Assembly (NCBI GenBank): GCA_004431415.1 | Contig: QPMI01000618.1 | Span: 1 to 64,000, forward strand | DNA from: Cyanophora paradoxa CCMP329 | Lineage: Eukaryota > Plantae > Glaucophyta | Length of the DNA: 64,000 bases | Direction: 5' to 3' | Shown here: one piece after another, positions 1,340 to 44,418 of the stretch | Layout: each line of letters opens with the position of its first letter | Position numbering within the stretch: position 1 is the stretch's first letter | Notes under the pieces: model-generated | What the model was told of the DNA's origin: nothing | What the model saw: the letters and a program-made list of their open reading frames with translations, nothing else | The model's database searches: none | Program-made: the position numbers and the translations under genes

Positions 1340-1453
1340 GGGGCCGACGATTTAAGGACCGACGATTTAACAGTGCGCGCGCGTGGTGCGTGCGCAACTT
1401 CGTGCCTGACCCGCGATGCGCTAAGGTCTGCGGTCTTTAAATTGTCGCGCCCC
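1340..1453. repeat. ~115-bp segment bounded by ~22-bp imperfect inverted repeats (MITE-like relic) in each unit
   Basis: GGGGCCGACGATTTAAGGACCG (1340-1361) versus the reverse complement of CGGTCTTTAAATTGTCGCGCCCC (1431-1453). No target-site duplication seen. Confidence 0.45.
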
Positions 1454-1536
1454 GGTATGTACTTGCGCAAGCAAGCTCAAGCAGCGGTTAAGATCTGCAA
1501 GGATCGGCGAATTCAATTAAGGCCCCCGCCGAGGGC

Positions 1537-3042
1537 CCTTCTTTCCCCCAATGCAAAAACCGGCTCTCTTTCGCCCCATCGGCCTTCCGATGCGACACGG
1601 AAAATACTCCCCTTCCCCGCCCAGCCCTCCTGCGCCCACAGCACACCTTCTGCACAGCCCTGGGCATCAACAAGACCACCACTTCATCCATCCAAAAGAC
1701 CTCGCGCTGCTACTCGACCATATCTCCGAGCAATCTGGAGGGACCGTCGGACCGATGCGCCCGCAACCATTCCTGGGAAATCCGACAAGGCATCACCGAT
1801 AGGACCAAACGTAGATTTCGCAGCGGAAGCGGAAGCCGGGTCCCCGCCCTCCCCGGCCCCCCCCCCCCCCCCCCCCCCGCCCTCTCCCCTCTCCCTTCAC
1901 AATACCATTTGCAAAAAAAACCATCGATATCCGCCGGTTGCGTCCTCTCCGCCTCCCACCCCGCCTCTCCGCCGGTTGCGTCCTCCCTCCCATCAATTGC
2001 ACGCAACCCTCAATTCTTCGCGGGCCGCACGCTTGCAGCCCCGGTCCCTCAGACAGCAGAACAGTAGACGCTAATTATAAAGCTAAACGAGAGCCTAGCG
2101 GCCAGCACCCTGCCCACCCCGTCCTCAGGGTCCAACCCCTTCTTGCAACCGTCCAAACGTCCCGCTCCCCCCCCCCCTTGCCCTTCCAAGCGCGCGTGCC
2201 CGTCCCCCTCTCCACGCAAACGAGCAGCTGACGCTCTTCCCGGGCCAGTCCCTGACTCCAAACGCTCGCGTCCCGTGGCCCCTACCCCTCGAGCTCCCGC
2301 CCCTCCGCCCGCCTTATACATATAATTACCTAAACCCACGACTAATTATATATAAAAGGACGGCGGCCGGCCGCAAGACGATCAAGCGTGTAACCAAAAA
2401 CTTTTTAAAGCGAGAACGGTGCCCGCAGGACACCTCACTTTCACGTCCCTTTTCGCACCCGGCAAGTACAAACCTCTCGAGCTCGTGGCACCGCCAGCCG
2501 CCGCTCTGACGACGCCTGCTGAACCCGACCCCCCCCCCCCCCCAACCACCCATTCCCGGCTCGCTGAGTCGACGTCCCCTCCCTCGTCGACCCAGCCGAC
2601 ACCCCAAACCTTGAACGACCCTCGACCATCCTCGGTCCCTCCCCAGGCCTCGACCGACCCCCAGGCTCCGGATCCGGCCCCACGCCGGCTTCGGCCACCC
2701 CTTTGGCTTCGGCCACTAGTACTCCCCCGGCTTCGGCCACAATCTTGGCCTCGGCCACCCCTCCGGCTTCGGCCCGGCTCTGGCTTCGGCCACCCCCCCG
2801 GCTTCGGCCGACCCTTTCCGACCCCTCGCGGCCCGCCTTGCCTCCATGCTCCCAGCTCTCTCAGAGAGTCTGCTCCGTCTGCAATTGTCCGCGCTCTCTC
2901 CACTCGGTCGTCTCCGCACCCCTCCCCGCCCCGCCCCGCATCCGCTGCCCACCCCCTGCTACTGCCTCTGCGCACTCCCTCTCCTTCCTCCTCTCCTCCT
3001 CCTACCACCTCCTTCACCTTGACAAGACAGGGCACGGACTAA
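1537..3042 (+). pseudogene. Decayed, 5'-truncated reading frame in the repeat unit (helical segment, NLS-like stretches, Pro/Ser/Ala-rich tail); one unit shown
   Basis: Protein-like pieces recur across copies: HTFCTALGINKTTTSSIQKDLALLLDQYLRAIWRDRR, PSPRKRAADA..SKRSRP, PASAT repeats, ending TLTRQGTD*. The frames are broken, including a shared shift within the PASAT repeats. Confidence 0.4.
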
Positions 3043-12000: not shown

Positions 12001-15000
12001 CAACCCCTTCTTGCAACCGTCCAAACGTCCCGCTCCCCCCCTGCCCCTTCCCCAAGCGCGCGTGCCCGTCCCCCTCTCCACGCAAACGAGCAGCTGACGC
12101 TCTTCCCGGGCCAGTCCCTGACTCCAAACGCTCGCGTCCCGTGGCCCCTACCCCTCGAGCTCCCGCCCTCCGCCCGCCTTATACATATAATTACCTAAAC
12201 CCACGACTAATTATATATAAAAGGACGGCGGCCGGCCGCAAGACGATCAAGCGTGTAACCAAAAACTTTTTAAAGCGAGAACGGTGCCCGCAGGACACCT
12301 CACTTTCACGTCCCTTTTCGCACCCGGCAAGTACAAACCTCTCGAGCTCTTGGCACCGCCAGCCGCCGCTCTGACGACGCCTGCTGAACCCGACCCCCCC
12401 CCCCCCCCCCCCCATTCCCGGCTCGCTGAGTCGACGTCCCCTCCCTCGTCGACCCAGCCGACACCCAAACCTTGAACGACCCTCGACCATCCTCGGTCCC
12501 TCCCAGGCCTCGATCGACCCCAGGCTCCGATCCGGCCCCACGCCGCTTCGGCCACCCCTTTGGCTTCGGCCACTAGTACTCCCCGGCTTCGGCCACAATC
12601 TTGGCCTCGGCCACCCCTCCGGCTTCGGCCGGCTCTGGCTTCGGCCACCCCCCGGCTTCGGCCGACCCTTTCCGACCCTCGCGGCCCGCCTTGCCTCCAT
12701 GCTCCCAGCTCTCTCAGAGAGTCTGCTCCGTCTGCAATTGTCCGCGCTCTCTCCACTCGGTCGTCTCCGCACCCCTCCCGCCCGCCCCGCATCCGCTGCC
12801 CACCCCCTGCTACTGCCTCTGCGCACTCCCTCTCCTTCCTCCTCTCCTCCTCCTACCACCTCCTTCACCTTGACAAGACAGGGCACGGACTAATCCGGGC
12901 CCTGGGGCGCAGGTGAGGCGGAGTAGGGACCCGGAAGGCGGAGGAGTGGTGGTGCGGCGGCAAGGGAGGGCGGCGGACTGCGGGACCTTTCACTTCCAGG
13001 GCTCATGAGGGATGGAGGAGTTGATCAAGGGGTGGGCGCGTGGGACTGGTTACGGCTATCGATATCCCCGAAAACCATGTCTCCCCCACTCAGGCGATCG
13101 CGAACCTCCCATATTGAGCGATCCAAGGCCGGCAACTTGCTAACACTTCAGCTAGATAGTCGACCGGTCGGAAGGGCACGTCACGTAGAACATTGCCAAG
13201 TTGATACATGTGCCGTGGTTTATCAATGCGACGTCCATCTGTGCAAACAAAGGAAGGGGGGGGGGGGGCGGCGAGTATGTCAGGGGCTCATTTACGATTG
13301 ATCATGATCTTGTTTGTTTTGAATTCATTAATTGCAGATGACAAGCTTAAGGGGACCACGATTTCAGCGCGCGAGTGCGTGCGCGAATTCGAGTGCATGA
13401 CCGAAAAGCATGCATTGCAACGATCGCGAACGTTCATGATCATGTTCGTTTGTGAAGGGGCGCGAATATTCGCGCGCACGATTGCCGCGCCTGACCCGCC
13501 CTGAACGAAATGCATGCATTGCAATACGACCGAGGCAGGAGCGCTCCTGATCGTGTTCGTTCGTGAACTTCTTTGTTTCGCGCGTGCACGAATGGCCTGA
13601 ACCGCGCGCACGCGATGCGCTAATGAATCGCTTTTGTTTTTCATTAATTCATTTGAAGAGGGGCCGACGATTTAAGGACCGACGATTTAACAGTGCGCGC
13701 GCGTGGTGCGTGCGCAACTTCGTGCCTGACCCGCGATGCGCTAAGGTCTGCGGTCTTTAAATTGTCGCGCCCCGGTATGTACTTGCGCAAGCAAGCTCAA
13801 GCAGCGGTTAAGATCTGCAAGGATCGGCGAATTCAATTAAGGCCCCCGCCGAGGGCCCTTCTTTCCCCAATGCAAAACCGGCTCTCTTTCGCCCCATCGG
13901 CCTTCCCGATGCGACACGGAAAATACTCCCCTTCCCCGCCCAGCCCTCCTGCGCCACAGCACACCTTCTGCACAGCCCTGGGCATCAACAAGACCACCAC
14001 TTCATCCATCCAAAAAGACCTCGCGCTGCTACTCGACCAATATCTCCGAGCAATCTGGAGGGACCGTCGGACCGATGCGCCCGCAACCATTCCTGGGAAA
14101 TCCGACAAGGCATCACCGATAGGACCAAACGTAGATTTCGCAGCGGAAGCGGAAGCCGGGTCCCCGCCCTCCCCAGCCCCCTCCCCCCCCTCCCCGCCCT
14201 CTCCCCCCCCCTCCTTCACAATACCATTTGCAAAAAAACCATCGATATCCGCCGGTTGCGTCCTCTCCGCCTCCCACCCCGCCTCTCCGCCGGTTGCGTC
14301 CTCCCTCCCATCAATTGCACGCAACCCTCAATTCTTCGCGGGCCGCACGCTTGCAGCCCCGGTCCCTCAGACAGCAGAACAGTAGACGCTAATTATAAAG
14401 CTAAACGAGAGCCTAGCGGCCAGCACCCTGCCCACCCCGTCCTCAGGGTCCAACCCCTTCTTGCAACCGTCCAAACGTCCCGCTCCCCCCCTTGCCCCTT
14501 CCCCCAAGCGCGCGTGCCCGTCCCCCTCTCCACGCAAACGAGCAGCTGACGCTCTTCCCGGGCCAGTCCCTGACTCCAAACGCTCGCGTCCCGTGGCCCC
14601 TACCCCTCGAGCTCCCGCCCCTCCGCCCGCCTTATACATATAATTACCTAAACCCACGACTAATTATATATAAAAGGACGGCGGCCGGCCGCAAGACGAT
14701 CAAGCGTGTAACCAAAAACTTTTTAAAGCGAGAACGGTGCCCGCAGGACACCTCACTTTCACGTCCCTTTTCGCACCCGGCAAGTACAAACCTCTCGAGC
14801 TCTTGGCACCGCCAGCCGCCGCTCTGACGACGCCTGCTGAACCCGACCCCCCCCCCCCCCCCCACCCATTCCCGGCTCGCTGAGTCGACGTCCCCTCCCT
14901 CGTCGACCCAGCCGACACCCCAAACCTTGAACGACCCTCGACATCCTCGGTCCTCCCCAGGCCTCGATCGACCCCAGGCTCCGGATCCGGCCCCCACGCC

Positions 15001-18000
15001 GGCTTCGGCCACCCCTTTGGCTTCGGCCACTAGTACTCCCCGGCTTCGGCTACAATCTTGGCCTCGGCCACCCCTCCGGCTTCGGCCCGGCTCTGGCTTC
15101 GGCCACCCCCCGGCTTCGGCCGACCCTTTCCGACCCCTCGCGGCCCGCCTTGCCTCCATGCTCCAGCTCTCTCAGAGAGTCTGCTCCGTCTGCAATTGTC
15201 CGCGCTCTCTCCACTCGGTCGTCTCCGCACCCTCCCCGCCCCGCCCCGCATCCGCTGCCCACCCCCTGCTACTGCCTCTGCGCACTCCCTCTCCTTCCTC
15301 CTCTCCTCCTCCTACCACCTCCTTCACCTTGACAAGACAGGGCACGGACTAATCCGGGCCCTGGGGCGCAGGTGAGGCGGAGTAGGGACCCGGAAGGCGG
15401 AGGAGTGGTGGTGCGGCGGCAAGGGAGGGCGGCGGACTGCGGGACCTTTCACTTCCAGGGCTCATGAGGGATGGAGGAGTTGATCAAGGGTGGGCGCGTG
15501 GGACTGGTTACGGCTATCGATATCCCCGAAAACCATGTCTCCCCCACTCAGGCGATCGCGAACCTCCCATATTGAGCGACCCAAGGCCGGCAACTTGCTA
15601 ACACTTCAGCTAGATAGTCGACCGGTCGGAAGGGCACGTCACGTAGAACATTGCCAAGTTGATACATGTGCCGTGGTTTATCAATGCGACGTCCATCTGT
15701 GCAAACAAAGGAAGGGGGGGGGGGGGGGGGGCGAGTATGTCAGGGGCTCATTTACGATTGATCATGATCTTGTTTGTTTTGAATTCATTAATTGCAGATG
15801 ACAAGCTTAAGGGGCCACGATTTCAGCGCGCGAGTGCGTGCGCGAATTCGAGTGCATGACCGAAAAGCATGCATTGCAACGATCGCGAACGTTCATGATC
15901 ATGTTCGTTTGTGAAGGGGCGCGAATATTCGCGCGCACGATTGCCGCGCCTGACCCGCCCTGAACGAAATGCATGCATTGCAATACGACCGAGGCAGGAG
16001 CGCTCCTGATCGTGTTCGTTCGTGAACTTCTTTGTTTCGCGCGTGCACAAATGGCCTGAACCGCGCGCACGCGATGCGCTAATGAATCGCTTTTGTTTTT
16101 CATTAATTCATTTGAAGAGGGGCCGACGATTTAAGGACCGACGATTTAACAGTGCGCGCGCGTGGTGCGTGCGCAACTTCGTGCCTGACCCGCGATGCGC
16201 TAAGGTCTGCGGTCTTTAAATTGTCGCGCCCCGGTATGTACTTGCGCAAGCAAGCTCAAGCAGCGGTTAAGATCTGCAAGGATCGGCGAATTCAATTAAG
16301 GCCCCCGCCGAGGGCCTTCTTTCCCCAATGCAAAACCGGCTCTCTTTCGCCCCATCGGCCTTCCCGATGCGACACGGAAAATACTCCCCTTCCCGCCCCA
16401 GCCCTCCTGCGCCCACAGCACACCTTCTGCACAGCCCTGGGCATCAACAAGACCACCACTTCATCCATCCAAAAAGACCTCGCGCTGCTACTCGACCAAT
16501 ATCTCCGAGCAATCTGGAGGGACCGTCGGACCGATGCGCCCGCAACCATTCCTGGGAAATCCGACAAGGCATCACCGATAGGACCAAACGTAGATTTCGC
16601 AGCGGAAGCGGAAGCCGGGTCCCCGCCCTCCCGGCCCCCCCTCCCCCCCCCTCCCCCGCCCTCTCCCCCCCCCCTCCCTTCACAATACCATTTGCAAAAA
16701 AACCATCGATATCCGCCGGTTGCGTCCTCTCCGCCTCCCACCCCGCCTCTCCGCCGGTTGCGTCCTCCCTCCCATCAATTGCACGCAACCCTCAATTCTT
16801 CGCGGGCCGCACGCTTGCAGCCCGGTCCCTCAGACAGCAGAACAGTAGACGCTAATTATAAAGCTAAACGAGAGCCTAGCGGCCAGCACCCTGCCCACCC
16901 GTCCTCAGGGTCCAACCCCTTCTTGCAACCGTCCAAACGTCCCGCTCCCCCCTTGCCCCTTCCCCAAGCGCGCGTGCCCGTCCCCCTCTCCACGCAAACG
17001 AGCAGCTGACGCTCTTCCCGGGCCAGTCCCTGACTCCAAACGCTCGCGTCCCGTGGCCCTACCCCTCGAGCTCCCGCCCTCCGCCCGCCTTATACATATA
17101 ATTACCTAAACCCACGACTAATTATATATAAAAGGACGGCGGCCGGCCGCAAGACGATCAAGCGTGTAACCAAAAACTTTTTAAAGCGAGAACGGTGCCC
17201 GCAGGACACCTCACTTTCACGTCCCTTTTCGCACCCGGCAAGTACAAACCTCTCGAGCTCGTGGCACCGCCAGCCGCCGCTCTGACGACGCCTGCTGAAC
17301 CCGACCCCCCCCCCCCCCCCCCCCCCCCCCAACCACCCATTCCCGGCTCGCTGAGTCGACGTCCCCTCCCTCGTCGACCCAGCCGACACCCCAAACCTTG
17401 AACGACCCTCGACCATCCTCGGTCCCTCCCCAGGCCTCGATCGACCCCCAGGCTCCGGATCCGGCCCCACGCCGGCTTCGGCCACCCCTTTGGCTTCGGC
17501 CACTAGTACTCCCCCGGCTTCGGCCACAATCTTGGCCTCGGCCACCCTCCGGCTTCGGCCCGGCTCTGGCTTCGGCCACCCCCCGGCTTCGGCCGACCCT
17601 TTCCGACCCTCGCGGCCCGCCTTGCCTCCATGCTCCCAGCTCTCTCAGAGAGTCTGCTCCGTCTGCAATTGTCCGCGCTCTCTCCACTCGGTCGTCTCCG
17701 CACCCTCCCCGCCCCGCCCCGCATCCGCTGCCCACCCCCTGCTACTGCCTCTGCGCACTCCCTCTCCTTCCTCCTCTCCTCCTCCTACCACCTCCTTCAC
17801 CTTGACAAGACAGGGCACGGACTAATCCGGGCCCTGGGGCGCAGGTGAGGCGGAGTAGGGACCCGGAAGGCGGAGGAGTGGTGGTGCGGCGGCAAGGGAG
17901 GGCGGCGGACTGCGGGACCTTTCACTTCCAGGGCTCATGAGGGATGGAGGAGTTGATCAAGGGGTGGGCGCGTGGGACTGGTTACGGCTATCGATATCCC

Positions 18001-18046
18001 CGAAAACCATGTCTCCCCCACTCAGGCGATCGCGAACCTCCCATAT

Positions 18047-18162
18047 TGAGCGACCCAAGGCCGGCAACTTGCTAACACTTCAGCTAGATAGTCGACCGGT
18101 CGGATGAGCGACCCAAGGCCGGCAACTTGCTAACACTTCAGCTAGATAGTCGACCGGTCGGA
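18047..18162. repeat. 58-bp tandem duplication private to the terminal array unit
   Basis: TGAGCGACCCAAGG...GACCGGTCGGA at 18047-18104 and again at 18105-18162. Confidence 0.95.
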
Positions 18163-19148
18163 AGGGCACGTCACGTAGAACATTGCCAAGTTGATACATG
18201 TGCCGTGGTTTATCAATGCGACGTCCATCTGTGCAAACAAAGGAAGGGGGGGGGGGCGGCGAGTATGTCAGGGGCTCATTTACGATTGATCATGATCTTG
18301 TTTGTTTTGAATTCATTAATTGCAGATGACAAGCTTAAGGGGGCCACGATTTCAGCGCGCGAGTGCGTGCGCGAATTCGAGTGCATGACCGAAAAGCATG
18401 CATTGCAACGATCGCGAACGTTCATGATCATGTTCGTTTGTGAAGGGGCGCGAATATTCGCGCGCACGATTGCCGCGCCTGACCCGCCCTGAACGAAATG
18501 CATGCATTGCAATACGACCGAGGCAGGAGCGCTCCTGATCGTGTTCGTTCGTGAACTTCTTTGTTTCGCGCGTGCACGAATGGCCTGAACCGCGCGCACG
18601 CGATGCGCTAATGAATCGCTTTTGTTTTTCATTAATTCATTTGAAGAGGGGCCGACGATTTAAGGACCGACGATTTAACAGTGCGCGCGCGTGGTGCGTG
18701 CGCAACTTCGTGCCTGACCCGCGATGCGCTAAGGTCTGCGGTCTTTAAATTGTCGCGCCCCGGTATGTACTTGCGCAAGCAAGATCAAGCAGCGGTTAAG
18801 ATCTGCAAGGATCGGCGAATTCAATTAAGGCCCCCGCCGAGGGCGCGATGGAGATCGGGAATGTGGGATCCGGATGCATATGATCGAAAAGGAATGAGGG
18901 GAATGAAATGAGGGGAGAAAGGATCCGGATATCGATCGAGGGAGAATCGTTAATTAAGATCAGCTCGAGCGCATCAATCCGCGACCCGTACCCGCGGCCG
19001 CATTCATGTGCATTTTCCCTCGCGATCGGGCCATTTCGGCGCATTTCGGAATTTAATATCCTCTCTAGCTCCACTCCTCTCGATTCTAACTCCTGACGAT
19101 GTCCTGACGACTCCTCTCGATTCTGAATCGTCGAATCGGCACGCGACG

Positions 19149-20735: not shown

Positions 20736-20834
20736 TTGCACGTTCACCATCCGCCGCCGCTGCGGGCGCGCGCCCCGCCCCTCCTCCCCTCCCCCCTCCC
20801 CCCCCCCCCCTCGTCCTCGAACTCGACGCGGTAC
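20736..20834 (-). pseudogene. Orphan degenerate copy of the 3' end of the coiled-coil gene (27995-28084)
   Basis: TTGCACGTTCACCA.CCGCCGCCGC.GCGGGCGCG...TCGTCCTCGAACTCGACGC.GTAC occurs at both loci in the same orientation. Confidence 0.85.
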
Positions 20835-21044: not shown

Positions 21045-24000
21045 TCACGCGTCCTGCGCGGTCTCGCGCCCGGACCCGACGTCGTCGGAGACGTCGACGT
21101 CGCCGGCCGCGGCGCCGGCCGCGGCGTCGGCCGCCCCCCGCTGCAGGTGGGCCCTCAGCATCCCCTCGAGCCGCGCGAGGCGCTCCTGCGCGGGGGGTGC
21201 GCGCGGGGGCCGAGTCATGATCAGGGGGCCCCACATGGACATCCGGGGCGGCAGCGGCAGCCGGCCGGGGGGCCTAGGGCGCTAGGGCGCTAGGGCGGAC
21301 TCGCCTCGAGGGCCCGCTGGCCCCGCAGGATCTCCGGGTGGGGCCCTGCCCACGGGCCGCCCCCGGGGTCGCTCCCCTCGCCCGCGCCCGCTTCCTGCTT
21401 GTGCTTGACGCCTCGGGGGCACGCCGCGGCCGGTGAGCCCTCATCGAGCTCCCCCACTTCACCTTCGCTCGAGCTCGCCCCGCTGCCGGCGTCGCTCGCC
21501 GTGGGGCGCGTTCGCCGCGCGATTTGGCCCGCCCAGCTGGCGAGGGTGGCCGCGGCCGCGGGTCTTGGTCTCAGACGACGGCCGCGGGTCGAGCTCGAGG
21601 CTGCGGGGGGCGGGGGGCGGGGGCGGGCACCGGTACGCAGCGTTCTCCGGGAGGCCCGGATGCCTCGCGCGGAGCGCCCTGCAGCGAGCGCGCCGACGTT
21701 GATGCATGTCAGCGCAGAGACAAGTACTGCGAGAGCCGCTGAGCGCGCGATGCGTATGCACGCACCTGGCGACGTCGCCGCCGCTGACGAGGCGGCTCCC
21801 GCCGGCCGCGGGGCGCGGCTGCATCCCGCGCAGCACCTCCCACACCTGCGGCGGAGCGGAGAGTCGAAATTCGAGTTCGGTGCTGCGCATCAAAGCCATT
21901 CGAGATTCGGTATTAAATATTCGCCTGGAGGTCGGTGAGGAGGCGGGCAGGCCGGCCGCGGCCGAGCGCCCTCTCCGTCTTCACGGCCGCGTTCACCGCC
22001 GAGATCCGCGACATCTGCCGCCGGCGTCGGCCGCGCCGGCGAACATATATACCCATCGATGTTTAATTTAGCGCTGGCTCCAATAGTACTCCGGCCCGAG
22101 CGCACGTCGGCGAGCTCGGAGAGGAAGCTGCGCCCGTCCCCGACCTCCTCGCTGACCTGCGCCCCGTTCCCGATCGCGACCGGCCAGTGAGAAACCGAAG
22201 CGGGACCAGCTGCAGCGCCTCGCGATCTCGACTGGGGGGCTCACCGACGCGTACTTGTCGCAGATGATGCTGCTCAACGTTAACGGTTGGGAAGCATTTC
22301 AGCTTCCGCAGCTCGCGCGACCCGAGTCTAAATAAAGACTCTTGGCGCACGCGATGAACTGCGAACAAAGCCTCAGGAATGGCCGTAGTTAAAGGCATTG
22401 GGGGCGCGAGGGAAGCTTAAGTGGGGCGCACGATGTTGATGAGGGTGTACGTCGCAAGGAGGTTGAAGATCCAGTAGAACTGCGGGGGGGGGGAGGGGGG
22501 GGGGAATGAGCCCCGGGATATCGATGCGAGGACTGCAAAGCAAGCGGGGCGGGAGGGGGGGAGGGCGAAGGGAGAGGGGGGGGAGGGGGGGGGGCGAGGC
22601 GCAGGGGGCGGACCAGGACTCGGAGCGCGTTGTCCTTGAGGACGATGCTGCGCAGGGAGCGATTGATATCAGCACCGCGGCCGGCGACAGCGACGCCGGC
22701 GCTCTTCTTCGCATCTTATAATCAAGCTTCGAATTCGGCACTAAAGGTTCCGATCCGCTGCATGGGGCGGGGCCGGAGCCACCTGCTGAGGTCGACCATC
22801 TCGCTCATGAGGAGGTGCTCGCTTAACTTCGCGAGCGAGATGCCCTGCCGCAGTGCCACGCGCGCGTGCACGTGTGCACAGTTAGTATATATATCGAATC
22901 AGAAGTGAGGAGACGGCGCGGGGAGCGGTATGTGCGAGAAGTCGGGCGGACCAGATCTGCGTAGTAGATCTCCGAGGAGCCGAATAGCACGTTACTCTGC
23001 GGCGCAGCCGCGCGCGTAAGCGATCGATCGAACTATAAGTATTTTTCGAGCGTGTGCGCACCATGCAAGCTGCCCAAGAGATGGCGGGATACGGAGAAGA
23101 GAGTGTAAGCGCGTTAAACTTGAAACGCAAAGAAAAAGAAGGGAAGCCGCCAGCCGCAGGGACGGCGCTGTTGCGAACCAAATACCTGCAGAGCAAGAAT
23201 AATAGTTCAAACGGTTGATAATCAGCTGCAGATCGATATCCCGCCCCGGGCCCTCGAGCGAGCCGTGACTGATGGATGTGTATACTATTATGATACTCGC
23301 GGGACGCGCACGATGAGCACGATGAGGACGAGTGCCGCAAGATGGAACAAATCCGAGGAAGACTGCACAAAAGGCGTCGCGATCAGTGCGTGTGACTGGG
23401 TCAGATATCGATCGTGATGGCGGGCGTGTGGCGCACGCGAACGAGGGTTCGCGTGAGCAGTCCCATCCGCCCCTGTCGAAGAAGTACGTGAGCGCAGCGA
23501 CCGATAATTATAAATTATGAATTAAAAGGTCCAGGGGCACCTGAAAGTGAAGGAGCTTGAAGATGCGAATGAGCCCCAGAAAAAGGTCTGCGAATGTCGG
23601 AGAATCACGCGCCGCTACAGTCGCACGCGTACGTGCCCCGGGGCCCGTGACGCACTTATGGCGGTGAGGACGTGGTACGTCCTGAAGAGCGATGCCGCCC
23701 TTAGGCAGCTGTCGTACAGCCTCTGGGCATGACGTGGCCCAGAGCCGGCGCCAACCATCAGAGAGCGCAGACGACGACCGAAGTCGAACGCGTTTGAAGG
23801 TGGCGGCGGCACGCACGCCCAACAAATTCACATCCTCTGCGACGTCATAGCTGTCGAGGAGCTGCGGGATAGAAATTCAGAGAAATGCTCGAAATCGAGA
23901 AACGCAATGCGCATGGCCAGCACTAGTTGATTCAAATTCGGCGGGACGCACGTCGGGCCTCGGGGCGGGCAGGCCGCTCTGGTTGCTTATGATGACGCCC

Positions 24001-27000
24001 CAGAACGCGATGACGGCGACGAAGAGCAGCTGGTCGAGGAGGTCCGCGAGGAACTGCCGGACCAAAATATATATGAATTCGAAGTTCCGGAACCGCTCGT
24101 TCGTTTGCTTTAGAGATCAAGCGACGCGCGCAAGCCAACGTTCGCGACGGCAACAGACCATTCCTGCTGCAAGGGTACGAAGGAATCGGCGCTTCCTACG
24201 TGCTCGCAAGAGGTGCATTCCCGTATCGACCAGGCTGCACCGCCGTCGCGCGCGTTAATCACAACCGTTGCGAGGCTCGTACAAACGTTTCGAAACCGCC
24301 GGACGCATGCGCACCGAACCAGAACGCATACGATGACAAAGATCTCCAGAGCCTGGCGAGATGATGCGGCGTCATGCAAGCGATCGCCGACACTCTGAAG
24401 GGTTCAAAGCTGTACATGCGCGCACCAGGCGAAACATGTCCAAGCTTGTCGAATACCTGTCACATCGCATCGATATCAGACGCAGGATCGCGGGGGGAAG
24501 ACACAGCACAGCGAGAGTGCGCAGCGAGAGTGCGCACAGCTCGACGCGGAAAACGTCGACGGAGATGTGCGGCTCGGGGCTGCCTCCGAGCGGCAACGAA
24601 AGCATCACCTGCGTGCACGGGTGCGGCGTTAACGTTATTGAAGTAACATTAACACAGGGAATTCGAAGTTGCGTCGATCTCTACCGTAGAAAGAGCGAGC
24701 GATGGCCAGGCGAAAGGGGCACGCCGGGAGACCAATTGCAAGGAGACGCACCTCCGTGAGGGCCATCATCCGAACGTGGCCATTGTAGGTCGCTGGAAAC
24801 CGCGCGCGATCGCGAGCGTCGCGATCGTGCTCGCGATCGTGCGGCCGCGCGCGCGGGGCGAGCGAACCGAACTTGACGGAAATCGAGCGCGTGCTGCGGC
24901 CGACGATGTCCATCATCTGCAATCGCACCAAATCAAATTGAATTCGAAGTTGGTTGAATAATCAAGAATGCGAATTTTCGCTGATGTATACGTACCCTCA
25001 GAAACTCGACTTGAGCGAAGGCCGTTTCCCGAGACACGTTGAAGACGGAAATGAATCCCGCTGCCCGAAGTAGAAACTGAGCTCGAGAGCGATCTCGCGA
25101 AGCCGGATGGACTGGCCATGGCATGAGCCGCACCGATTTCGCCTCCGGGGAAGATGCCGTGGCCCGCCCTGGTAACGCTGCACCGGACATGCATGTGAGA
25201 GAGCGCCGACGCCGACGCCGGCCGTGGGCGACGTCGGCGGCGCGAAGGCCTAGGGCGGCGGGGCCGGGCCGGGGCGCGCACTTCTCATACACGCTGACGA
25301 GGAAGCCGCCGAGCTCGAGCTCGGCCTTGGTCAGCCCGGCGAGCGGCGAGCCCGAGCCCGCTTCCTCGGGCGCCGCGCCGCCCGTCTCGGCGCTGCCCTC
25401 GCCATCGCTCTCGGCGGCGGCGGCTGCTGCGGCGCCTGCGGCGCTCGCGGTGCCGTTTCCAGCAATGTCCGCCCCACCCTCTGCAGCGGCAGCCTCCTGG
25501 AGGCGTCGGTGCTGCCTCCTCGCGGGCTCCCCGGCACTCGTTCGCGAGGCCCCGGACGCGCCCCCGAGGTCGAGGCCGGTGCCGGGCAGCCCGAACATCG
25601 TCCGCACGATCTTCCTGCGCCCGGAGCCCGCGTGAGGGCGGCGCGGCACGGGGGGGTGGCGGAGTGGGCGAGGAGCACACATGACGCGAAGAAGGGTCTC
25701 GCCGTTCGCGGGGTCCGTGTAGTCCAGCCGGAGCAGGGGCGGCGCCGGCTCGAAGATGCTGGGGCCGGTGAAGCACTCGGGGTACAGCTGGCCGCGGCCG
25801 CCCGCGACCGATCAAGATCGACTCGTGATCTGCAGCTGGCGCGCCCAAGCCAAGCGCGGGCACCTTTTGGAAGCGGGGCTGGCCTCGGCAGCTCTCGTTG
25901 GCGCGGCGGTCCTGCGCCCGACCGTCGATATCGATTGGGGCGCGGGGCGGACGGAGTGGCGTGGAGGGGAGGGGGGCGGCCGCGGGCGCCTGCAGGACGA
26001 GGATCGCGCCGATGATGCGGTTGTGCCGCCCGAGCATCCCGTCGGGGTACCGGAACGCGAAGTCCAGCAGCGGGCCTGCCGACCGCGCGCGAGGGTGCAC
26101 TCAGCGAGCCGAGGGCGGGCCGGGGAGGGCTCGGGGAGGGGCCGGGCCGGGCGCGCCGGCGAGCCAGTCGAGGAAGCCGCGGGCGTCGAGCACGCCGGCG
26201 ATACCCGTCGCCTCCAGCTCCCCCGACAGCGCCTTCTGCTCCACCGCGACCAGCATCATGATCAGGCCGCGGAGGGGCGCCGGCGGGATGCGGGCCGGCG
26301 AAGGGGGGAGGGGGGCATCAGGGGGAGAGGGGGGGGGGGGGGGGGGTTGTGGGTAGGGGGGTGGGAGAGGGGGGGCGGGGGGCGGAGACGGATTCGTGGA
26401 GCTTGAGACATCGGATTCGAAAGTTAGCTCTAGCTACGGGCGGGGGCGGCTCACCTGCACTTCCCACGCGGCGCGCGTGTCACGCTGCAGAAAGAGGACC
26501 CCAATGTAGACCTGCCGGGGGGCGAAAGGGGCGTCACGGTCGGACCCGCCCCCCGGGCCCGGCGGTGAAGCTCTAGCTCTCGCGTCGCCCTCACCGAGTA
26601 GAAGACCACGAAGGCGGCGAGGCGGCCGTAGTGCCGCAGGCTCTTCCGGTCCTGGCGCAGCGCCTGAGGGGCGGCTCAGCGTGAGGCTCCCGGCGATAGG
26701 CCGCGGGGGAGGGAGTGCGCCTCGAGGGCCCGGTCGAGGGGGATGGCGACCAGCTCCTCCTTGCGCGGCGCCGCCGGCGCCTCCACACTCTCCTCAGAGC
26801 TCGCCGCCGCCGCCGGCGCCGGCGCCGCCGCCGCCGCCGGCTGCACGAGGCGCACAGCCCACTGCGTCGGACCCTTGTGCGCGCTCACATCGGCCGCGGA
26901 ATCGTCGCTGCGCATGCCGGTCGCAACGTCGGGCACATGCATGGCCGGCGCCGTTGCAGAACTCGTGGGCCCTGCGGTCGGCGGCCGCTCGAGCGCTTCC

Positions 27001-27161: not shown

Positions 27162-28002
27162 GAAGAGGCTGCTGGAGGGCTATAGCTAGCTCATGATCAG
27201 GCATGCGCAACGCTGGACGGCCGGCCGCGGCCGCGGCGCGCGCCGGCAGCTGCTCGAGCCCCCCCGGCCGCGGCGCCGGCCGCAGCCGGCCGCGCGCGTG
27301 CCGCGGCCCTAGGCCTCGCGCTGCGAGCCTGCGACCGGCCGCGGTCACCCGTATGCGTTCCCGTCGCCGGGAGGCACGCTATAGCCTATAGCTAGCACGC
27401 GCGCTAGGCGCCGCTAGCGCTTGCAATTGAGCTGCTCCTAGCCGTGGAATCGGCCGGGCGTGGATCCCCGGACCCGGGATATCGATCGTGGTCCGCACTG
27501 ATTCCGCAGGCAGCGGCTGCCGCTTCAAGGCTTGCAGAAATCGAAGCAGCTGCTAGCTGCAGGCTGCACTCACTCCTGGCTACATCGTAGAGTACCCCTC
27601 CACTCCAGCCTTCCGGATCCGCTTCGAATTCGAATTCCGGATGATCATGAGAAGACTTGAAGACTTGGAGCTCAAGGCTTGAGCTTGACGGCTTTACCGA
27701 AGTGGACGACCTATAGCTAGGTGAACTTTAAGGAGAGATGTACATGTCTGCCTTCCGGAATCCGGATGCTCAGCCTGGCAGTATGCTTTTCGTCTTGCAA
27801 TTGCAAGTGGCAGGTACGAGTTCCATGGCCAAGCTCCGAGGCTCGCGCCGCCTAAACTCTAGCTAACCGTTGAACCGCCGCCGCGGCACGCGTACGCCGC
27901 CGTACTAGTGCTCGCCGCTCGTGCTCTTTGCGACGCCCTTTCTTCGCGCCCCTCTCCTCGCGCGCCGTGGAAATAGCATCGCGCCGTGTTTGCATTGCAC
28001 GT

Positions 28003-31000
28003 TCACCAGCCGCCGCCGCCGCGGGCGCGCCCCGCCCCCTCCTCGTCCTCCCCCCCCTCCTCGTCCTCGAACTCGACGCCGTACCCCTCCTCATCGTCCG
28101 TGACGACGTCCTCGACCTCGTCCGCCTCGAGCTCCACCGTCGGGCCCCGCCACCGCGGGCCCCCCTCCACCTAAAAATAGCCAGGCTCAGCTGAGCTGGA
28201 CGGGGGGGGGGGTACGGGGGAGCGCGCGCCTCGCCCTCGACGGCGGCGTCGGCCTCCTCCTCATCGCCGCCGTCCTCCGAAGCGGCGGTGGAGGGCGCCG
28301 GCGGCCCCGAGCGCGCCCGCGGCGACTCTTCTTCTTCGCCCGCCTCCGTTTTGCCCTGGCCTTCGCGATCGGCCTCGGGCCGCACGGGGAGGAAGTGGCT
28401 CGTGCCGGGGGCCGGCGCCTGCAGTCGGGGATCCAGGCGTGGGCCGCCCGCCCGCCCCGCGCACAAGCGCACGCAGGGTGGGCGCACCAGTGGGTTTGAG
28501 GAGGAGACGCGCTCCGGGCTCAGGAAGCGCTTCCCGGTTGGCTCCGGCGCGGAAGGAACGTCGCCGGCCGACCCGCCCTCAAAAGGAGCAGCGGTGGCGG
28601 CGGCGGCGGCGGCGCGGGCCTCGAGTAGCTCGCGGCGGATCTCGTCCGCCTCCGCCCGCGCCACCCGCGCCTCGCCCCGCGCCTCCTGCGGCCGGGTCGC
28701 GTCAAACGGGGCGCACGGGCAGGGCGGGCGGCCGAGGATTCAAGGTGAGAGTAGTACTGCGCGAGCCCTCTAGTAGTGGCCTCTTGCTGGCGGCCCGAGA
28801 GGGGCCCGAGAGGGGCAGTGGAAGGGGCGGGGCGGGCGGCCCGATGTTCTAAGGTGAGAGAGCCCGCGAGCCCTCTAGCGGCCCCTTGCTAGCGGCCCTC
28901 TAGCGGCCCCTTGCTAGCGGCCCGAGAGGGGCAGTGGAAGGGGCGGACCTCGCCGCGGGCGTCGGCCTCCGCCTCAAAGCGCCGCCGCATCTCCTCCGCC
29001 TCCCGCCGCGACGCCTGCCCCGCCCGAAGACAAATGATCGATCCCGTGCGGCGTACCCCTGGAAGAAGAGGGGGTACGGGGTGGGGACGCACGGCGAGCT
29101 CGGCGCCGAGGCGCTGCTGCAGGGCCGCCGCCTCTTTCTCCGCCGCCCGCGCCCGCGCCGCGTCCACGCGCGTCTCCTGCGCCCAAAAGGGATAAGAAGG
29201 GGGGTACGGCGAGCTCGGGGGAGGACGGGGGGTACGGCGAGCTCGGCCTCGAGGCGCAGGCGGTCAGTCTCGGCCTCGCGCCGCGCGGCGCCGAGCTCCA
29301 CGCGGGCCGCCTGCGTGCGGGCGCCGTCAGCGGGGCGGGCGAGGAGAGAAAGAGGGAAGAAACGGAGAAGGGAAGGGGGGGGGGGGGGGGGGGGTAGGGG
29401 CGCACGGCGACGTCGGCCTCGAGGCGCTGGTGGACGGCCTCGAGCTCCCGCCGGATCCCCGCCGCCTCCCCGCGCGCCGCCTGTGCCCTCCGTGAGCGAA
29501 GCGAGCGAAGGCGGGGGCGGGGGCGAGGGCGAGGGCGGACCTGTAGGTCGGCCTCGAGGCGCGCCCGCACCGCGCGGGCCTCCTCCGCCGCCGCCTCCGC
29601 CTCCGCGCGCGTCGCCTGCCGCAGCTGAGCGCCCCCAGGGGTGCCAGGGGTGCCCGGGGCGCCCGGGGCGCACCTGGGAGTCGACGGCGGCGCGCTGCTT
29701 GGCGAGCTCGGCCTCGCCGCGGGCGGCGAGCAGCATCTCCCGCGCCGCCTCCTCGCCCCGCGCCGCCTCGTCCGCCTCCCGCCGCGCCGCCTACAGAGAA
29801 GAAGATGAGAAGATGAGAAGAAGGCGGAGTGAGAGTGTAAAAGAAAGCGGAGGGCGGACGGCGAGGGCGGCCTCGAGTCGCTCGCGGACGAGCTCGGCCT
29901 CGAGCAGCGCCTCCCGCCCCGCCGCCGCCTCCCCGCGCGCCCCCTGCGCCGGTGAAGCCGTTGAGAGACAGAGAAGGAAAGGGGGAGACGAGGGACGGCA
30001 GCGGCGCACGGCGGCGTCTGCCTCGAGGCGCTGGCGGATGGCGTCGGCGTCGCGCCGGGCCGTCGCGAGCCGCTCCCGCGCCGCCTCCGCCTCCGCCCGC
30101 AGCGCCTCCGCCTCCCGCCGCGCCGCCTGCCGCGCGGCCCGGCCGGGGACTCAGGCGGGCGGAGAAAGAGGGAAGCGGCGCGGGCGGGAGCCGAGGCGGC
30201 ACGCGCACCGCGAGGCCGGCCTCGAGCTGCCCGCGGACGTCTGCGAGCTCCTCCCGCGCCGCGCGCGCCTCCCCGCGCGCCCCCTGCACCGCCGCCTCAA
30301 AAGAAGGCGAAGAAGAGAGGGGCGAGTGGAGGGGTACCGCGATCTCGGTCTCGAGGCGCAAGCGGATCGTCTCCGCCTCGCGCCGCGCGAACTCGGCCTC
30401 CGCCTTGGACGCCTGCGGCGAAAAGAAAGTCGGGTTGGGTCGGGTCCGCGCCCCCGGCAGCCGGGCGGCCCGAGCGAAGGGCGCGGGCGGGCGCCGGGCG
30501 CACGGCGGCGTCGGCCTCGAGCAGCTGCCGCGCGGCCGCCGCCTCCCGCCGCGCCGCCTCCACCTCCACCCGCGCCGCCTGCGCGCCGCTGAGCGCCGCG
30601 GAGCGGAGCGGGCGGAGCGGCGGGGCCAGCGCACGGTCGCCTCCTCCGCGTGGGCCCGGCGCAGCGCGTCCGCCTCCCGCCGCGCCGCCTCCGCCGCCGC
30701 CTCCGCCGCCTACGCGCGCGCGCGTCGGAGGCGGCGGGGCGGGGCGGGGCGGGGCGGTGCGTGGCGGGGCGCACGGCGGCGTCGCCGCGGAGGGCCGCCA
30801 GCGCCACTTCGGCCTCCCGGCGGGCCCCTGCGCCCCGGCTCGGCTCGGGCCCCGCGCGGGGCCGCGCGTGCGGGCGGGGTGTAGGGCCTACGGCGAGATC
30901 CTCCTCGAAGCGGCTGCGAGCCTCAGACGCCTCGCGCCGCGCCGCCTGCAGGCGCCGGGGCCTCAGCTGGGGCGGGGCTGGCGGGGCAGATGGGGCGGGG

Positions 31001-32779
31001 CGGGGCGGGGGTACAGCGCGCCTCGGCGTCCGCGGACGCCTGCGCGAGCTGCGCCAGCAGACCCTGCACCCGAACTCGCCACGAGACCCGAGGCGGGGCG
31101 GGGCGGGGCGGGGCGGGGCGGGCGGGGCGGCGCGGGCGGCGCGGGCGCACGGCGCTCTGCTCGCGGGCGCGGCGGGCGGCCGCCTCGGCGTCGGCCAGGC
31201 GCGCCTCGGCCGCCTCCGCCGCCTCCGCCGCCGCCCGCATCCGTTCCAGCGTCGCCTGCGCGGGCGCGCGTCAGACGCGCTGGGCGCGCCGGGCGGCGCG
31301 GGGCGGCGCGGGCCGCGGGCGCGCCTGCCCGTCTGCGCGGAGCCGCTGGTTCATCTCAAGGCTGCCCCGCGCCTCCGCCTCGTGCCGCGCCGCCTTCTTC
31401 TGCGCCGCCTGCGGGCCGGTGAGGGCCGAGCCGGGGGGGTACAGCCCGCCTGTCTGCCTCGGCGCACCTCGCACTCGGCGGCGGAGCGCTTCGCGCTGGC
31501 CTCCGCGCGGGCCGCGGCGCCGTACGCCTCCTCGAGCCCCGCCCTCAGATCCTACGGGGTACGTCAAACAGGGCCGGGGTACGTCGAACTGGGGGAAGGC
31601 GCGCCTCGGCCTCCTCGGCGGCGGTGCGGGCGGAGCGCATGGCGGCCTCCATGCCCTCCGAGAGGCGCGCGCCGACGGTCCGGAGAGAGTCCGCCTCGCC
31701 TCGGGCCCGGTCTAGAGCCGCACGCGCCGCCTGCCGAGGGCTCAGCAACGCTTAGAGCGCAGGCGGGCGGGCGGGCGGGCGGGGCGGGCCTGCAGCTGGC
31801 GGCGGAGCGCGGCGTTCTCCTGCCGCAGGCGCGCCGCTTCGGTCTCCTGCCTCAACGACCGCCGCGCATCGATCTGCCGCCACCCGCATCGTCGGCCGCG
31901 CCGCGCCGCGGGGGCGGGGGCGGGGCACGCGGCGCGCACGTCACGCTCGGCGGCGGCGACGGCGGCGGCGCGGGCCTCGTCGTCCTCGCCCGCCGCGGGA
32001 GCCTCGGCCGACGTCGCGGGGTCGGCGGGCGCCTCGGTGCGGCCGGCGCGGGCGGCGCCCGTGGCGCCGGCGAAGAGCGCGCGGCGGCGGGCGGCGTCGC
32101 CCTCCGGGTCCCGCGAGCACGAGCGGAGCATCGCGTCCGCGCGCTCCAGCGCCCGCAGGCTCTCCTGCCACAGCTCCTCCGACCACGCCGCCCGCGGCCG
32201 GCCCGGCAGCTGCTCGCCGCGTCAGCCACGCCGCCGCGTCCGCGGCAGTCAAGGGACGCGGGAACAACCGTAACGCACGCGAGAAGCGTACGCCTCGTAC
32301 TCGAAGCTGGCGTCGAGGGGGATGGGCGAGACGGGCCGGGGCTTCTCGTCGGGCGACTCGGCCTTGTAGACCGCCGAGGGCACCTCGTCGACGGCCGCGG
32401 TGTAGGTCGGCCGCGGGGCCTCGGCGCGGTACATGACCGGCGCGTCGCCCGGCCGCCACGGAGCCACGATGCTGGTCCTCGTAATGCCGCGGTCGGTCGA
32501 GCGCGAGGGCATCAGCTGCCGGTCCCGTTGCGGGAGCGGGTGGTTGAATCGGATGGTAGCCACGAGCGGCCCCTGCGTCTGGGGCGCTGCCGGAGTCGCG
32601 CAGGTGCCGGCATACGCGACGGAGCTCGCGTCGGAGCTGCTCGCTGCGGCCGCGGTCGTCCTCCGAGCTGGCGGCTTGACAGGAGGCGATGCGCTGCGCA
32701 GGACGCGGGGCGGCAGCTTCTTCTCCGGCACTCGCACGCCGTAGCGCGCGAGCAGATTGTCCTCCGCGCTCGGCGGCAT
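28003..32779 (-). CDS. Ala/Glu/Arg-rich coiled-coil protein built from repeated phase-0 exons, unknown function
   Basis: ATG at 32779 (MPPSAEDNLLARYG). Exons include AARGEAAGIRRELEAVHQRLEADVA, AARVELGAARREAETDRLRLEAELA and ASKAEAEFARREAETIRLRLETEIA. Last exon is acidic (EDVVTDDEEGYGVEFEDEE...GGW*), TGA at 28003-28005. Confidence 0.7.
28742..28947. repeat. Diverged ~110-bp tandem duplication inside an intron of the coiled-coil gene
   Basis: AAGGTGAGAG..GCGAGCCCTCTAG..CTTGCT.GCGGCCCGAGAGGGG..CAGTGGAAGGGGCGG occurs twice. Confidence 0.75.
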
Positions 32780-32838
32780 CGCGCAGGGAATGCGAACGAA
32801 GCCGCACGTGTGTACCCCCGGGCAAAACAACTCGGCGC

Positions 32839-32986: not shown

Positions 32987-35032
32987 ATGTCGCTGAACAG
33001 CAACGCGTACACAGACAGGGCGTGGACATGCGTGACGAACGCGGTCGACATCGCCAAGGAAGCGGGCCACGTTCAAGTGCGCTCTAGATCTCGCGGCCCC
33101 GCATGCGCAGCGCGCCTCCCCCGGCCCGCAGCGGCTGGCGTGCGTTCCAGCTGCTGATTGGGTCTTGCGGCTGTCGTGCAGCTCCGGCCAGCGACGCTCG
33201 CCGTCGCGCTGGTCACAGAGGAAGGCGGGCTCGCGCGGTCAGCCATCACAAAGGCGGGCGGGGACGCGAAGGCGGTGGAGCGGAACCTTCGCGCAGAGCT
33301 TGCCAAAGTGCGCCGTGCCGCGTTCAACCCAGACGCCGCAGCATGAAGGCCGCTGATCATGGCGCCCGCAGATTCCCTCGCAGCAGCCGGCGCCTGAGAT
33401 GCCCTCGCCGACGCCCGATCTCATGAAGATTCTGAAGCGGGCGGAAGAAATAAAGGTGCGGGCGAGCTATGCGGCTTCATCCAACGTGCCCGCAGGGCTC
33501 ACCGTCGCTGCAGAAGAAGCACGGGGATTCGCTGATCTCGGCCGACGCGCTCCTCTCTGCGGCCCTGGAGGATAAGACCGTGCGGGCGGCGTTCGCGGAG
33601 ACTGGTGCGCTCACGTGGCGCATCCTTTCCCCGCGCGCGCGCGCCCGCCGACTGCCGGCGCCGCGCAGGGATTCAGATGGTGAAGCTTGAGGCGGCGATC
33701 AAGGACATGCGGGGGAGCAAAGTCGTGACCTCGAAGTCCGCCGAAGACACTTTCGACGCGCTGAACAAGTACGGGCACGACATGGTCAAGCTCGCCGAGG
33801 GTGATTGGAATTCGATCCGCGCCTCCGATTTGATCCGCCGCGCACGGGCCGGCCCGGCTGACGGGCCCACTCGGCCGCCGCAGAGGGCAAGCTGGACCCG
33901 GTTATTGGGCGGGACGACGAGATCCGGCGCGTCATACGCGTCCTCGCCCGGTGCGCTCCGCAGTCGCGCGGCCCGCCCCGCCGCGATCCGTATCCGCGTC
34001 CGCGCCGCTGACATGCGCCGCGCCTCGCCCGGCCCGGCGACAGACGGACGAAGAACAACCCGGTGCTGATCGGCGAGCCGGGCGTGGGCAAGACGGTTCG
34101 CCCCGCTCCGCCCAGCTTCGCTTCCCTTCCTTTCTTTCTCTGAGGCGGGCGGGCGGGCGGCCGCGGGCAGGCGATCGTGGAGGGGCTGGCGCAACGGATC
34201 GTGCGCGGGGACGTGCCCGAGTCGCTCAAGTGCCGGCTCTTCTCGCTCGACATGGGCGCCCTCGTCGCCGGCGCCAAGTACCGCGGCGAGTTCGAGGAGC
34301 GACTCAAGGTCCGCTCTGCTTCGCTCTGCTCCGCTTTGCGTTCCGTTCCTGAGGCGGCGCCGCGCGCTCGCGCGTGCGCAGGCGGTGCTGAAGGAGGTGG
34401 AGGACGCGGAGGGGACGGTGATCCTCTTCATCGACGAGATCCACCTCGTGCTGGGCGCCGGCAAGGCCGAGGGCTCGATGGACGCCGCCAACCTCCTCAA
34501 GGCACGCCCCCGGCCCGCGCCGTCCGATCGCGCGGATCGAATTCGAACCCGAATTTGATCCGGCCCGGCCCGGCCCGGCTCGCAGCCGATGCTGGCGCGG
34601 GGGACGCTGCGGTGCATCGGGGCGACGACCCTGGACGAGTACAAGAAGCACGTCGAGAAGGACGCGGCATTCGAGCGCCGCTTCCAGCAGGCGCGCCCGC
34701 TCCCCGCCCCGCCCCTTTGATTCCCGTCTGCCGCGCCTTTCTGGCTCTAAGCTTCTAAGGCAGGTGTACGTGGGCGAGCCGACGGTGGCGGACACGATCT
34801 CGATCCTCCGCGGCCTGAAAGAGCGCTACGAGAGCCACGTGCACCCTGCCCCGCTCCGCTCCGATCCCCGCGCTGGCCTCCCTCACTTCTTCCTCCTCCG
34901 CCCTCGCAGCACGGGGTGCGGATCGCGGACGCGGCGCTGGTGACGGCGGCGCAGCTCGCTGGGCGATACATCACCAACCGCTTCCTCCCCGACAAGGCCA
35001 TCGACCTGGTCCGCATTCTCACTTCCCGCCCG

Positions 35033-35067
<35 letters not shown>

Positions 35068-44379: not shown

Positions 44380-44418
<39 letters not shown>

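What the first reader, a model, noticed from the sequence alone, without database searches (positions are those of the whole stretch)
22245..23185. Three 7-8-nt micro-exons build the S5 and S6 helices of the channel
Seen on the minus strand: cag|GTATTTG|gttcgc (23185-23179, 7 nt) and cag|CTTGCATG|gtgcgc (23069-23062, 8 nt) together encode VFACM in S5; cag|TTCATCGC|gtgcgc (22358-22351, 8 nt) plus a 25-nt exon (22269-22245) give FIAIICDKYAS in S6. None is a multiple of three, so each pair must be co-included. Skipping both S5 micro-exons removes 5 residues in frame. Such exons require intron-definition splicing, and gene predictors would likely miss them and call a pseudogene.
Basis: partly seen in the sequence, partly recalled or inferred. 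Interest (0 to 1): 0.75.

Follow-up and report, generated by a model that had tools for sequence, protein, structure and literature searches.

The report
Tiny exons hide an algal channel
Three exons only 7-8 bases long appear in spliced transcript assemblies of a predicted polycystin-type ion channel gene of the alga Cyanophora paradoxa; the public gene model misses them and cuts the protein short before its pore, but exons this small are already known in plants and algae and these are likely routine, always-included ones.

Summary
Confirmed, and ordinary in kind. The 7-, 8- and 8-nt exons lie exactly where stated. Spliced contigs from two studies carry the joined letters: the S5 pair in 3 of 3 RNA-like runs laid on the gene, the S6 exon in 2 of 3. 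Only one AG/GT-GC parse gives those letters. They belong to a 36-exon, 880-residue PKD2/TRPP-like channel gene of Cyanophora paradoxa. None of 146 homolog rows has an indel in S5 or S6, so inclusion is probably constitutive. The public model stops in the intron before the 7-nt exon (487 aa, no pore); a 45%-identical paralog model breaks at the same codon. The S6 exon encodes the equivalent of PKD2's gate residue L677. The title overstates: the three exons supply about eight residues. Paired co-inclusion is unremarkable (21 of 34 internal exons are not multiples of three), and intron definition is inferred, not shown. Frame-shifting, mis-annotated micro-exons are documented in plants and Chlamydomonas (PMC8831610); my searches found no glaucophyte report. 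The scan earlier noted a 3-nt protist exon in another genome. Side finding: the RNA carries an in-frame 90-nt duplication upstream that the window lacks.

The parts
21045..26942 (-). PKD2/TRPP-like channel gene, 36 coding exons, 880 aa; introns 57-219 nt (median 81), 30 GT and 5 GC donors, all acceptors CAG; start codon inferred
   Evidence: model length matches the X1 contig except for the 90-nt extra; Pfam on the public part-model
23312..23362 (-). 51-nt exon, first part of S5
23288..23311 (-). start of the 126-nt intron into which the public model (g20816.t1) reads before stopping
   Evidence: the protein ends in the translation of this intron start
23179..23185 (-). 7-nt micro-exon, S5 (V589, F590, first base of A591)
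   Evidence: (X1, X3, X7)
23062..23069 (-). 8-nt micro-exon, S5 (rest of A591, C592, M593)
   Evidence: (X1, X3, X7)
22952..22996 (-). 45-nt exon, end of S5 and start of the pore loop
22614..22844 (-). 62-nt and 34-nt exons, pore helix and filter region
22432..22479 (-). 48-nt exon, first part of S6
22351..22358 (-). 8-nt micro-exon, S6 (F657, I658, two bases of A659); aligns with PKD2 F676-L677-A678, the hydrophobic gate
   Evidence: (X1, X3)
22245..22269 (-). 25-nt exon, distal S6 (C662 aligns with PKD2 N681)
23750..23839 (-). 90-nt unit that the RNA contigs imply is tandemly repeated in the sequenced cultures (not in the window); adds 30 in-frame residues in the S3-S4 loop

Best explanation
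Three 7-8-nt exons are spliced into the transcript of a Cyanophora paradoxa polycystin-2-like channel gene, and they are likely constitutive by-products of very dense, short introns that are likely recognised across the intron and removed one after another. Shown: the exons, their junctions in spliced contigs of two studies, the open 880-residue frame, and the truncated public model. Inferred: U1 and the 3'-site factors pair across each 65-126-nt flanking intron; once one neighbour is removed the tiny exon is part of a longer one, so its own size matters little; losing any one exon shifts the frame and removes the pore or the gate, so selection keeps inclusion near 100%. The product would be one subunit of a tetrameric cation channel (from PKD2 knowledge; untested here).
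For: Junction letters in X1, X3, X7; unique parse, null 0 and 2 of 20,000. Introns 57-219 nt, median 81; those flanking the micro-exons 65-126; genome mean 86 bp and 9.2 introns per gene (PMC6704402, passages); introns under 200 bp are more likely recognised by intron definition (PMC2397502, passages); retained introns in Cyanophora are shorter than spliced ones (PMC6142364, passages). Single skips stop at residue 590, 591, 682 or 779. 0 of 146 homolog rows have an indel in S5 or S6; the in-frame skips lower the profile score from 129.1 to 110.0 and 92.7, below the homolog range 129.5-221.3. Random placement of 35 introns in 2,643 nt gives 3.4 exons of 8 nt or less on average (P of 3 or more = 0.70). 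Micro-exon acceptors score 9.5, 10.0 and 6.3 bits against a median of 6.2; donors 6.3, 9.5, 6.2 against 6.5. Plant micro-exons: about half are not multiples of three, most are highly included, flanking introns are removed consecutively (PMC8831610, passages and section 7).
Against: Random placement also predicts about 5.9 exons of 9-24 nt and there are none (P = 0.001), so short exons are depleted in general and the three are not simply the tail of a free distribution. Two neighbouring genes checked against RNA have 0 of 31 internal exons under about 28 nt (Fisher P = 0.24 against 3 of 34, not significant). All runs are kept as contigs and only guessed to be RNA, so inclusion levels, minor skipped forms and the order of intron removal are unmeasured. 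The filter region is divergent (S where 122 of 146 rows have G), and the full model scores at the bottom of the homolog range, so channel activity is not assured.
Confidence: 0.85

Rival explanations
1. The micro-exons are regulated switches: joint skipping of the S5 pair (minus 5 residues) or of the 8+25-nt S6 pair (minus 11) makes a non-conducting or dominant-negative subunit, or single skipping sends the mRNA to decay.
For: Both paired skips keep the frame (875 and 869 aa). The 8-nt S6 exon carries the gate-equivalent residue. Three such exons fall in the pore domain of one gene while 0 of 31 exons in two neighbours are that short.
Against: Only the included form is assembled in every run that covers the sites. 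No homolog tolerates such deletions (0 of 146). Ten adjacent exon pairs in this gene sum to a multiple of three, so the paired arithmetic is common. Exon skipping is associated with long flanking introns (PMC2397502, PMC6142364, passages), which are absent here.
Confidence: 0.08
2. Exons of 7-8 nt are handled by a dedicated micro-exon route (a helper protein or intronic enhancer), distinct from the bulk route that disfavours exons under about 25 nt.
For: Gap in the size distribution: three exons of 7-8 nt, none of 9-24 nt, P = 0.001 under random placement. Two of the three acceptors are the strongest in the gene (9.5 and 10.0 bits; a 34-nt exon also scores 9.5). Plant micro-exons have enriched intronic enhancers and dedicated factors (PMC8831610 section 7; PMC10808074 seen in a search listing only).
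Against: Three exons in one gene chosen for having them; no enhancer motif was tested; a 9-nt candidate exists in a neighbouring gene (not RNA-checked). Compatible with, and not needed in addition to, the best explanation.
Confidence: 0.12
3. The gene is a truncated or decaying copy and the micro-exons are chance AG..GT matches read into it.
For: The public model ends before the pore; loose AG-N(1-15)-GT matches are frequent in this GC-rich window; the filter is divergent.
Against: The junction letters are in spliced contigs of two studies, parse uniquely and restore gap-free homology through S5, pore and S6 to the C-terminal tail.
Confidence: 0.01

Closest known systems
Small (1-15 nt) coding microexons of plants and Chlamydomonas (Yu et al. 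2022, PMC8831610; passages and section 7 read)
   Same: Internal exons of 15 nt or less, often not multiples of three, inside conserved domains, missed by annotation with truncated models as a result; adjacent pairs are described (5-nt and 12-nt in a rice gene). Chlamydomonas: 337 microexons, 2.59% of genes.
   Different: A glaucophyte with GC-rich introns of about 80 nt, which that survey did not include (0 hits for 'glaucophyte'); a channel gene; three in one gene, two of them consecutive.
Neural microexons of animals (SRRM4/SRRM3, RBFOX, PTBP1 regulated)
   Same: Size class.
   Different: About 80% of human ones are multiples of three and are switched (PMC8831610, passages); these are 7, 8 and 8 nt, with short flanking introns and no sign of switching.
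Polycystin-2 / PKD2L1 (TRPP) cation channels
   Same: Pfam PKD_channel (35.0 bits, cut-off 22.4) and Polycystin_dom (30.1, cut-off 23.6) on the public part-model; the complete paralog P0002 matches human polycystin-2 by sequence (E 4e-21) and by predicted fold (Foldseek E 4.9e-19, target TM 0.82); S5 and S6 align without gaps.
   Different: About 19% identity of the paralog to PKD2 in the fold match; the usual filter glycine is serine here; an Ala/Gly-rich insertion in the S1-S2 domain; nearest relatives are three Cyanophora paralogs, then unnamed or transcriptome proteins of Tetraselmis, Palpitomonas and metagenomes at about 30%.

Membership tests
Small coding microexons (plant/algal type, PMC8831610) | internal exon of 1-15 nt between GY-AG introns | tested here: met
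   7, 8, 8 nt; CAG acceptors, GT donors
Small coding microexons (plant/algal type, PMC8831610) | both junctions present in transcripts | tested here: met
   table 5c; runs are contigs guessed to be RNA but are spliced at canonical sites
Small coding microexons (plant/algal type, PMC8831610) | included in the major isoform (high percent spliced in) | tested here: inconclusive
   only the included form assembled; contigs drop rare forms, no counts possible
Small coding microexons (plant/algal type, PMC8831610) | U-rich or G-rich enhancers in flanking introns; delayed removal of the upstream intron | not tested
   five flanking introns are too few; no nascent-RNA data
Small coding microexons (plant/algal type, PMC8831610) | position conserved in relatives | not testable with these tools
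   no genome held; paralog model P0005 breaks at the same codon, a hint of a shared intron only
Neural microexons (SRRM4 type) | frame-preserving length (multiple of three) | tested here: not met
   7, 8 and 8 nt
Neural microexons (SRRM4 type) | regulated inclusion | not testable with these tools
   no raw reads listed
TRPP / polycystin-2 channels | PKD_channel and Polycystin (TOP) domains | tested here: met
   both above Pfam cut-offs on P0001
TRPP / polycystin-2 channels | six-helix TRP fold with the large S1-S2 domain | tested here: met
   tested on the complete paralog P0002, not on the joined model: pLDDT 77, top Foldseek hits all PKD2; the model aligns to P0002 through S6
TRPP / polycystin-2 channels | S6 gate motif (LLNMFLAIIN in PKD2) | tested here: met
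   LINIFIAIIC in the model; N, A, I columns conserved in 143-148 of 154 rows; PMC5998024 passages
TRPP / polycystin-2 channels | Gly-acidic selectivity filter (its role is recalled) | tested here: inconclusive
   S-E where 122 of 146 rows have G; the loop has a one-residue insertion, so the register is uncertain
TRPP / polycystin-2 channels | C-terminal EF hand and coiled coil; cation conductance | not tested
   a short heptad-like stretch aligns with a predicted helix of P0002; nothing was scored or assayed

The most novel reading that the evidence does not exclude
Cyanophora splices exons in two size classes, about 7-9 nt and over about 25 nt, with a forbidden zone between them; the tiny class is common enough to have hidden the pore domains of several of its polycystin channels from annotation and is handled by a dedicated, possibly regulated route that could tune channel output by dropping the gate-bearing exon.
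Probability: 0.1. Interest if true: 0.6.

Novelty: new member of a known kind. Interest (0 to 1): 0.27.

Why it matters
It corrects an annotation: a complete polycystin-2-like channel is on record as a 487-residue fragment without pore or gate, and a paralog is cut at the same codon, so counts of intact calcium/cation channels in glaucophytes based on the public proteome are probably too low. It extends frame-shifting micro-exons to a glaucophyte. It does not reveal a new splicing mechanism. The 90-nt duplication seen in the RNA, if genomic, would be a ready natural test of intron definition, because the donor nearer the acceptor is the one used.

Tried and rejected
No whole genome is held, so no genome-wide exon count and no look at the paralogs' DNA. 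No run is on record as RNA and none is kept as raw reads among those listed, so no inclusion levels. A second read-laying over 43600-63500, meant as a survey of micro-exons in three neighbouring genes, was crowded by chance 21-letter joints (37 joints and 20 rows of table 5c hidden); only record lengths and the listed joints were usable, and the large gene at 43.7-55.6 kb gave nothing usable. A length-constrained splice parser was ambiguous; a small ab initio gene finder reproduced the channel model but was trained on it and invented tiny exons inside long ClpB introns, so neither was used for counts. A motif scan for AG-N(1-15)-GT gave many hits on both strands and in repeats and is no evidence alone. 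A search for a separate public model of the 3' half found none, which is weak. Back-splicing or trans-splicing as the source of the 90-nt extra was rejected: no donor/acceptor pair gives the junction, which has one non-matching base. The joined protein was not folded; the complete paralog was folded instead. Rfam found nothing in the window. Paper searches: 'Cyanophora paradoxa' + 'microexon' gave 0 papers; searches listed none on glaucophyte micro-exons; two searches listed none on Cyanophora TRP channels. The library lacks most subscription papers, including the 2012 genome paper, and I did not read the supplements of PMC6704402, which could mention short exons.

Full report
Source and gene. 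The window is eukaryotic, GC-rich DNA with dense short introns. A search with the longest exon found one protein, 100% identical, labelled tig00021365_g20816.t1 of Cyanophora paradoxa. The finding lies in a minus-strand gene that I model with 36 exons from 26942 to 21045, coding 880 residues in one open frame, with 35 introns of 57-219 nt (median 81), all ending in CAG, 30 starting GT and 5 GC. The start codon is inferred. The genome paper reports a mean of 9.2 introns per gene, a mean length of 86 bp, and warns that the models need manual curation (PMC6704402, passages).

Observation. Of 21 runs listed, 10 hold part of the stretch; none is on record as RNA, seven holders are guessed to be RNA. 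I laid three of those seven and one other run on the gene. X1, X3 and X7 skip the modelled introns at canonical ends, so they behave as cDNA; X8 is colinear with the window. At the S5 joint all three spliced runs have 12 letters that fit neither side, and at the S6 joint X1 and X3 have 8; X7 does not cover S6. With the genomic flanks these give exactly the two junction sequences named in the refutation test. Only one parse with AG acceptors and GT/GC donors yields them; shuffled gaps gave a parse in 0 of 20,000 and 2 of 20,000 trials. Record lengths agree: 422 of 422 letters between anchored pieces, and 2,653 in all against 2,563 modelled, the difference being the 90-nt extra described below. 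These are two studies (P1, P2), as contigs, so presence is shown and rare skipping is not excluded.

Protein. The public model carries Pfam PKD_channel and Polycystin_dom above their cut-offs. The complete paralog P0002 matches human polycystin-2 by sequence (E 4e-21) and by predicted fold. The model aligns to P0002 and to 154 library rows through S5, pore and S6. After dropping 9 of 155 rows (the model itself, its truncated public form, the truncated paralog, an isoform and redundant cluster members), 0 of 146 have an indel in S5 or in S6. The 7- and 8-nt exons give V589-M593, near the end of S5. The 8-nt S6 exon gives F657-I658-A659, which align through P0002 with PKD2 F676-L677-A678; L677 is the single-residue hydrophobic gate of PKD2 (PMC5998024, passages). 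The 25-nt exon carries C662 at the N681 place. The filter is divergent: serine where 122 of 146 rows have glycine, with an uncertain register.

Annotation. The public protein is 487 residues, reads from the 51-nt exon into the next intron and stops: no pore, no S6. It also lacks the modelled N-terminus and S1. The closest paralog model, P0005 (45% identical), ends at the same codon with the same Val-Arg read-through, which suggests a shared intron and the same failure; its DNA could not be read. P0002 is annotated complete.

How it likely works. Shown: inclusion in the assembled transcripts. Inferred: with flanking introns of 65-126 nt the spliceosome would pair splice sites across each intron (short introns favour intron definition, PMC2397502, passages) and remove them in turn, as reported for plant micro-exons (PMC8831610, section 7). 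Skipping one exon ends the frame at residue 590, 591, 682 or 779; skipping either pair keeps it but drops the profile score from 129.1 to 110.0 or 92.7, under every homolog. So inclusion is probably constitutive. The pair arithmetic is not special: 21 of 34 internal exons are not multiples of three and 10 adjacent pairs sum to one.

Is three many? Random placement of 35 introns gives 3.4 exons of 8 nt or less (P of 3 or more = 0.70). Against that reading, it also gives 5.9 exons of 9-24 nt and there are none (P = 0.001). In two neighbours checked against RNA there is no such exon: 23 internal exons of a cyclase-like gene, smallest 30 nt, hand-parsed with sums matching the contig's 475, 371 and 945 letters after allowing for aligner slips and one assembly deletion, and 8 of a small gene, smallest about 28 nt. 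The contrast of 3 of 34 with 0 of 31 is not significant (P = 0.24), and this gene was picked for having them. One further 9-nt candidate lies at 49834 (+) without RNA check. Micro-exons here are thus present but not in every gene; the genome-wide rate is unknown.

Comparison. Yu et al. found 2,398 exons of 1-15 nt in ten species, 337 in Chlamydomonas; about half are not multiples of three, most coding ones are in the major isoform, adjacent pairs occur, and missing them yields truncated models (PMC8831610, passages). This case meets the size, splice-site and transcript tests of that class and fails the frame test of animal neural microexons. Micro-exons are also reported in a dinoflagellate (PMC12584245, passages). 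I found no paper on glaucophyte micro-exons or on Cyanophora TRP channels, within a library that lacks most subscription journals.

Side finding. In X1, X3 and X7 the contigs differ from the window at 23723-23749 while X8 does not. The listed differences are reproduced exactly if the RNA holds 23861-23750, one non-matching base, a second copy of 23838-23817, and then the next exon; the copied stretch occurs once in the window. That adds 30 residues in frame to the S3-S4 loop, absent from the paralogs. The simplest cause is a 90-bp tandem duplication in the cultures behind those runs (or one collapsed in the assembly), with the nearer of two identical donors used, which is what intron definition would predict. 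This is inference; no DNA showing the duplication was seen.

Verdict. Real, well supported, a new member of a known kind; useful as an annotation fix. Interest 0.27.

Noticed in passing
window 23723-23861 (-): RNA contigs of three runs (two studies) carry 90 extra in-frame nt: 67 nt of the intron, one non-matching base and a second copy of the last 22 nt of the exon; the unspliced run X8 matches the window. Likely a tandem duplication in the cultures, with the nearer donor used.
   Followed up: partly
protein P0005 (tig00021537_g22326.t1): Closest paralog's public model ends at the same S5 codon as this gene's model; P0004 (tig00001535_g9284.t1), another paralog, ends after S3. At least four such channel genes in this alga, three of the four models truncated.
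   Followed up: partly
window 22783-22844 (-): Filter region has Ser-Glu where most homologs have Gly-Asp/Glu; paralog P0002 also lacks the glycine. Selectivity may differ.
   Followed up: partly
window 49834-49842 (+): Candidate 9-nt exon with strong sites in a large (about 60 exons) gene at 43.7-55.6 kb that seems to encode a secreted or membrane protein with an internal repeat; no RNA check.
   Followed up: partly
window 1-18844: Tandem array of a unit of about 2.46 kb, at least 7 copies at about 98% identity; no Rfam match.
   Followed up: partly
window 27995-28084 and 20736-20834: A 99-nt direct repeat (82% identity) brackets the channel gene; it is the 3' end of the upstream coiled-coil gene.
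   Followed up: no
window 28000-32800 (-): Coiled-coil protein gene built of repeated exons of 75, 84 and 117 nt (ab initio model).
   Followed up: no
window 33100-37900 (+): ClpB/Hsp101-type chaperone gene (Pfam ClpB_D2-small on the last exon).
   Followed up: partly
window 57900-63200 (-): Spliced gene with an adenylate/guanylate-cyclase-like C-terminal part (recognised from recalled motifs; a 39-residue exon gave no Pfam hit).
   Followed up: partly
window 56136, 56239, 56254, 62438: All four RNA-like runs have one extra base at these places: probable single-base deletions in the assembly; the one at 62438 breaks a reading frame.
   Followed up: no
window 21045-26942 (-): 5 of 35 introns start with GC; GC donors are frequent in the cyclase-like gene too.
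   Followed up: no
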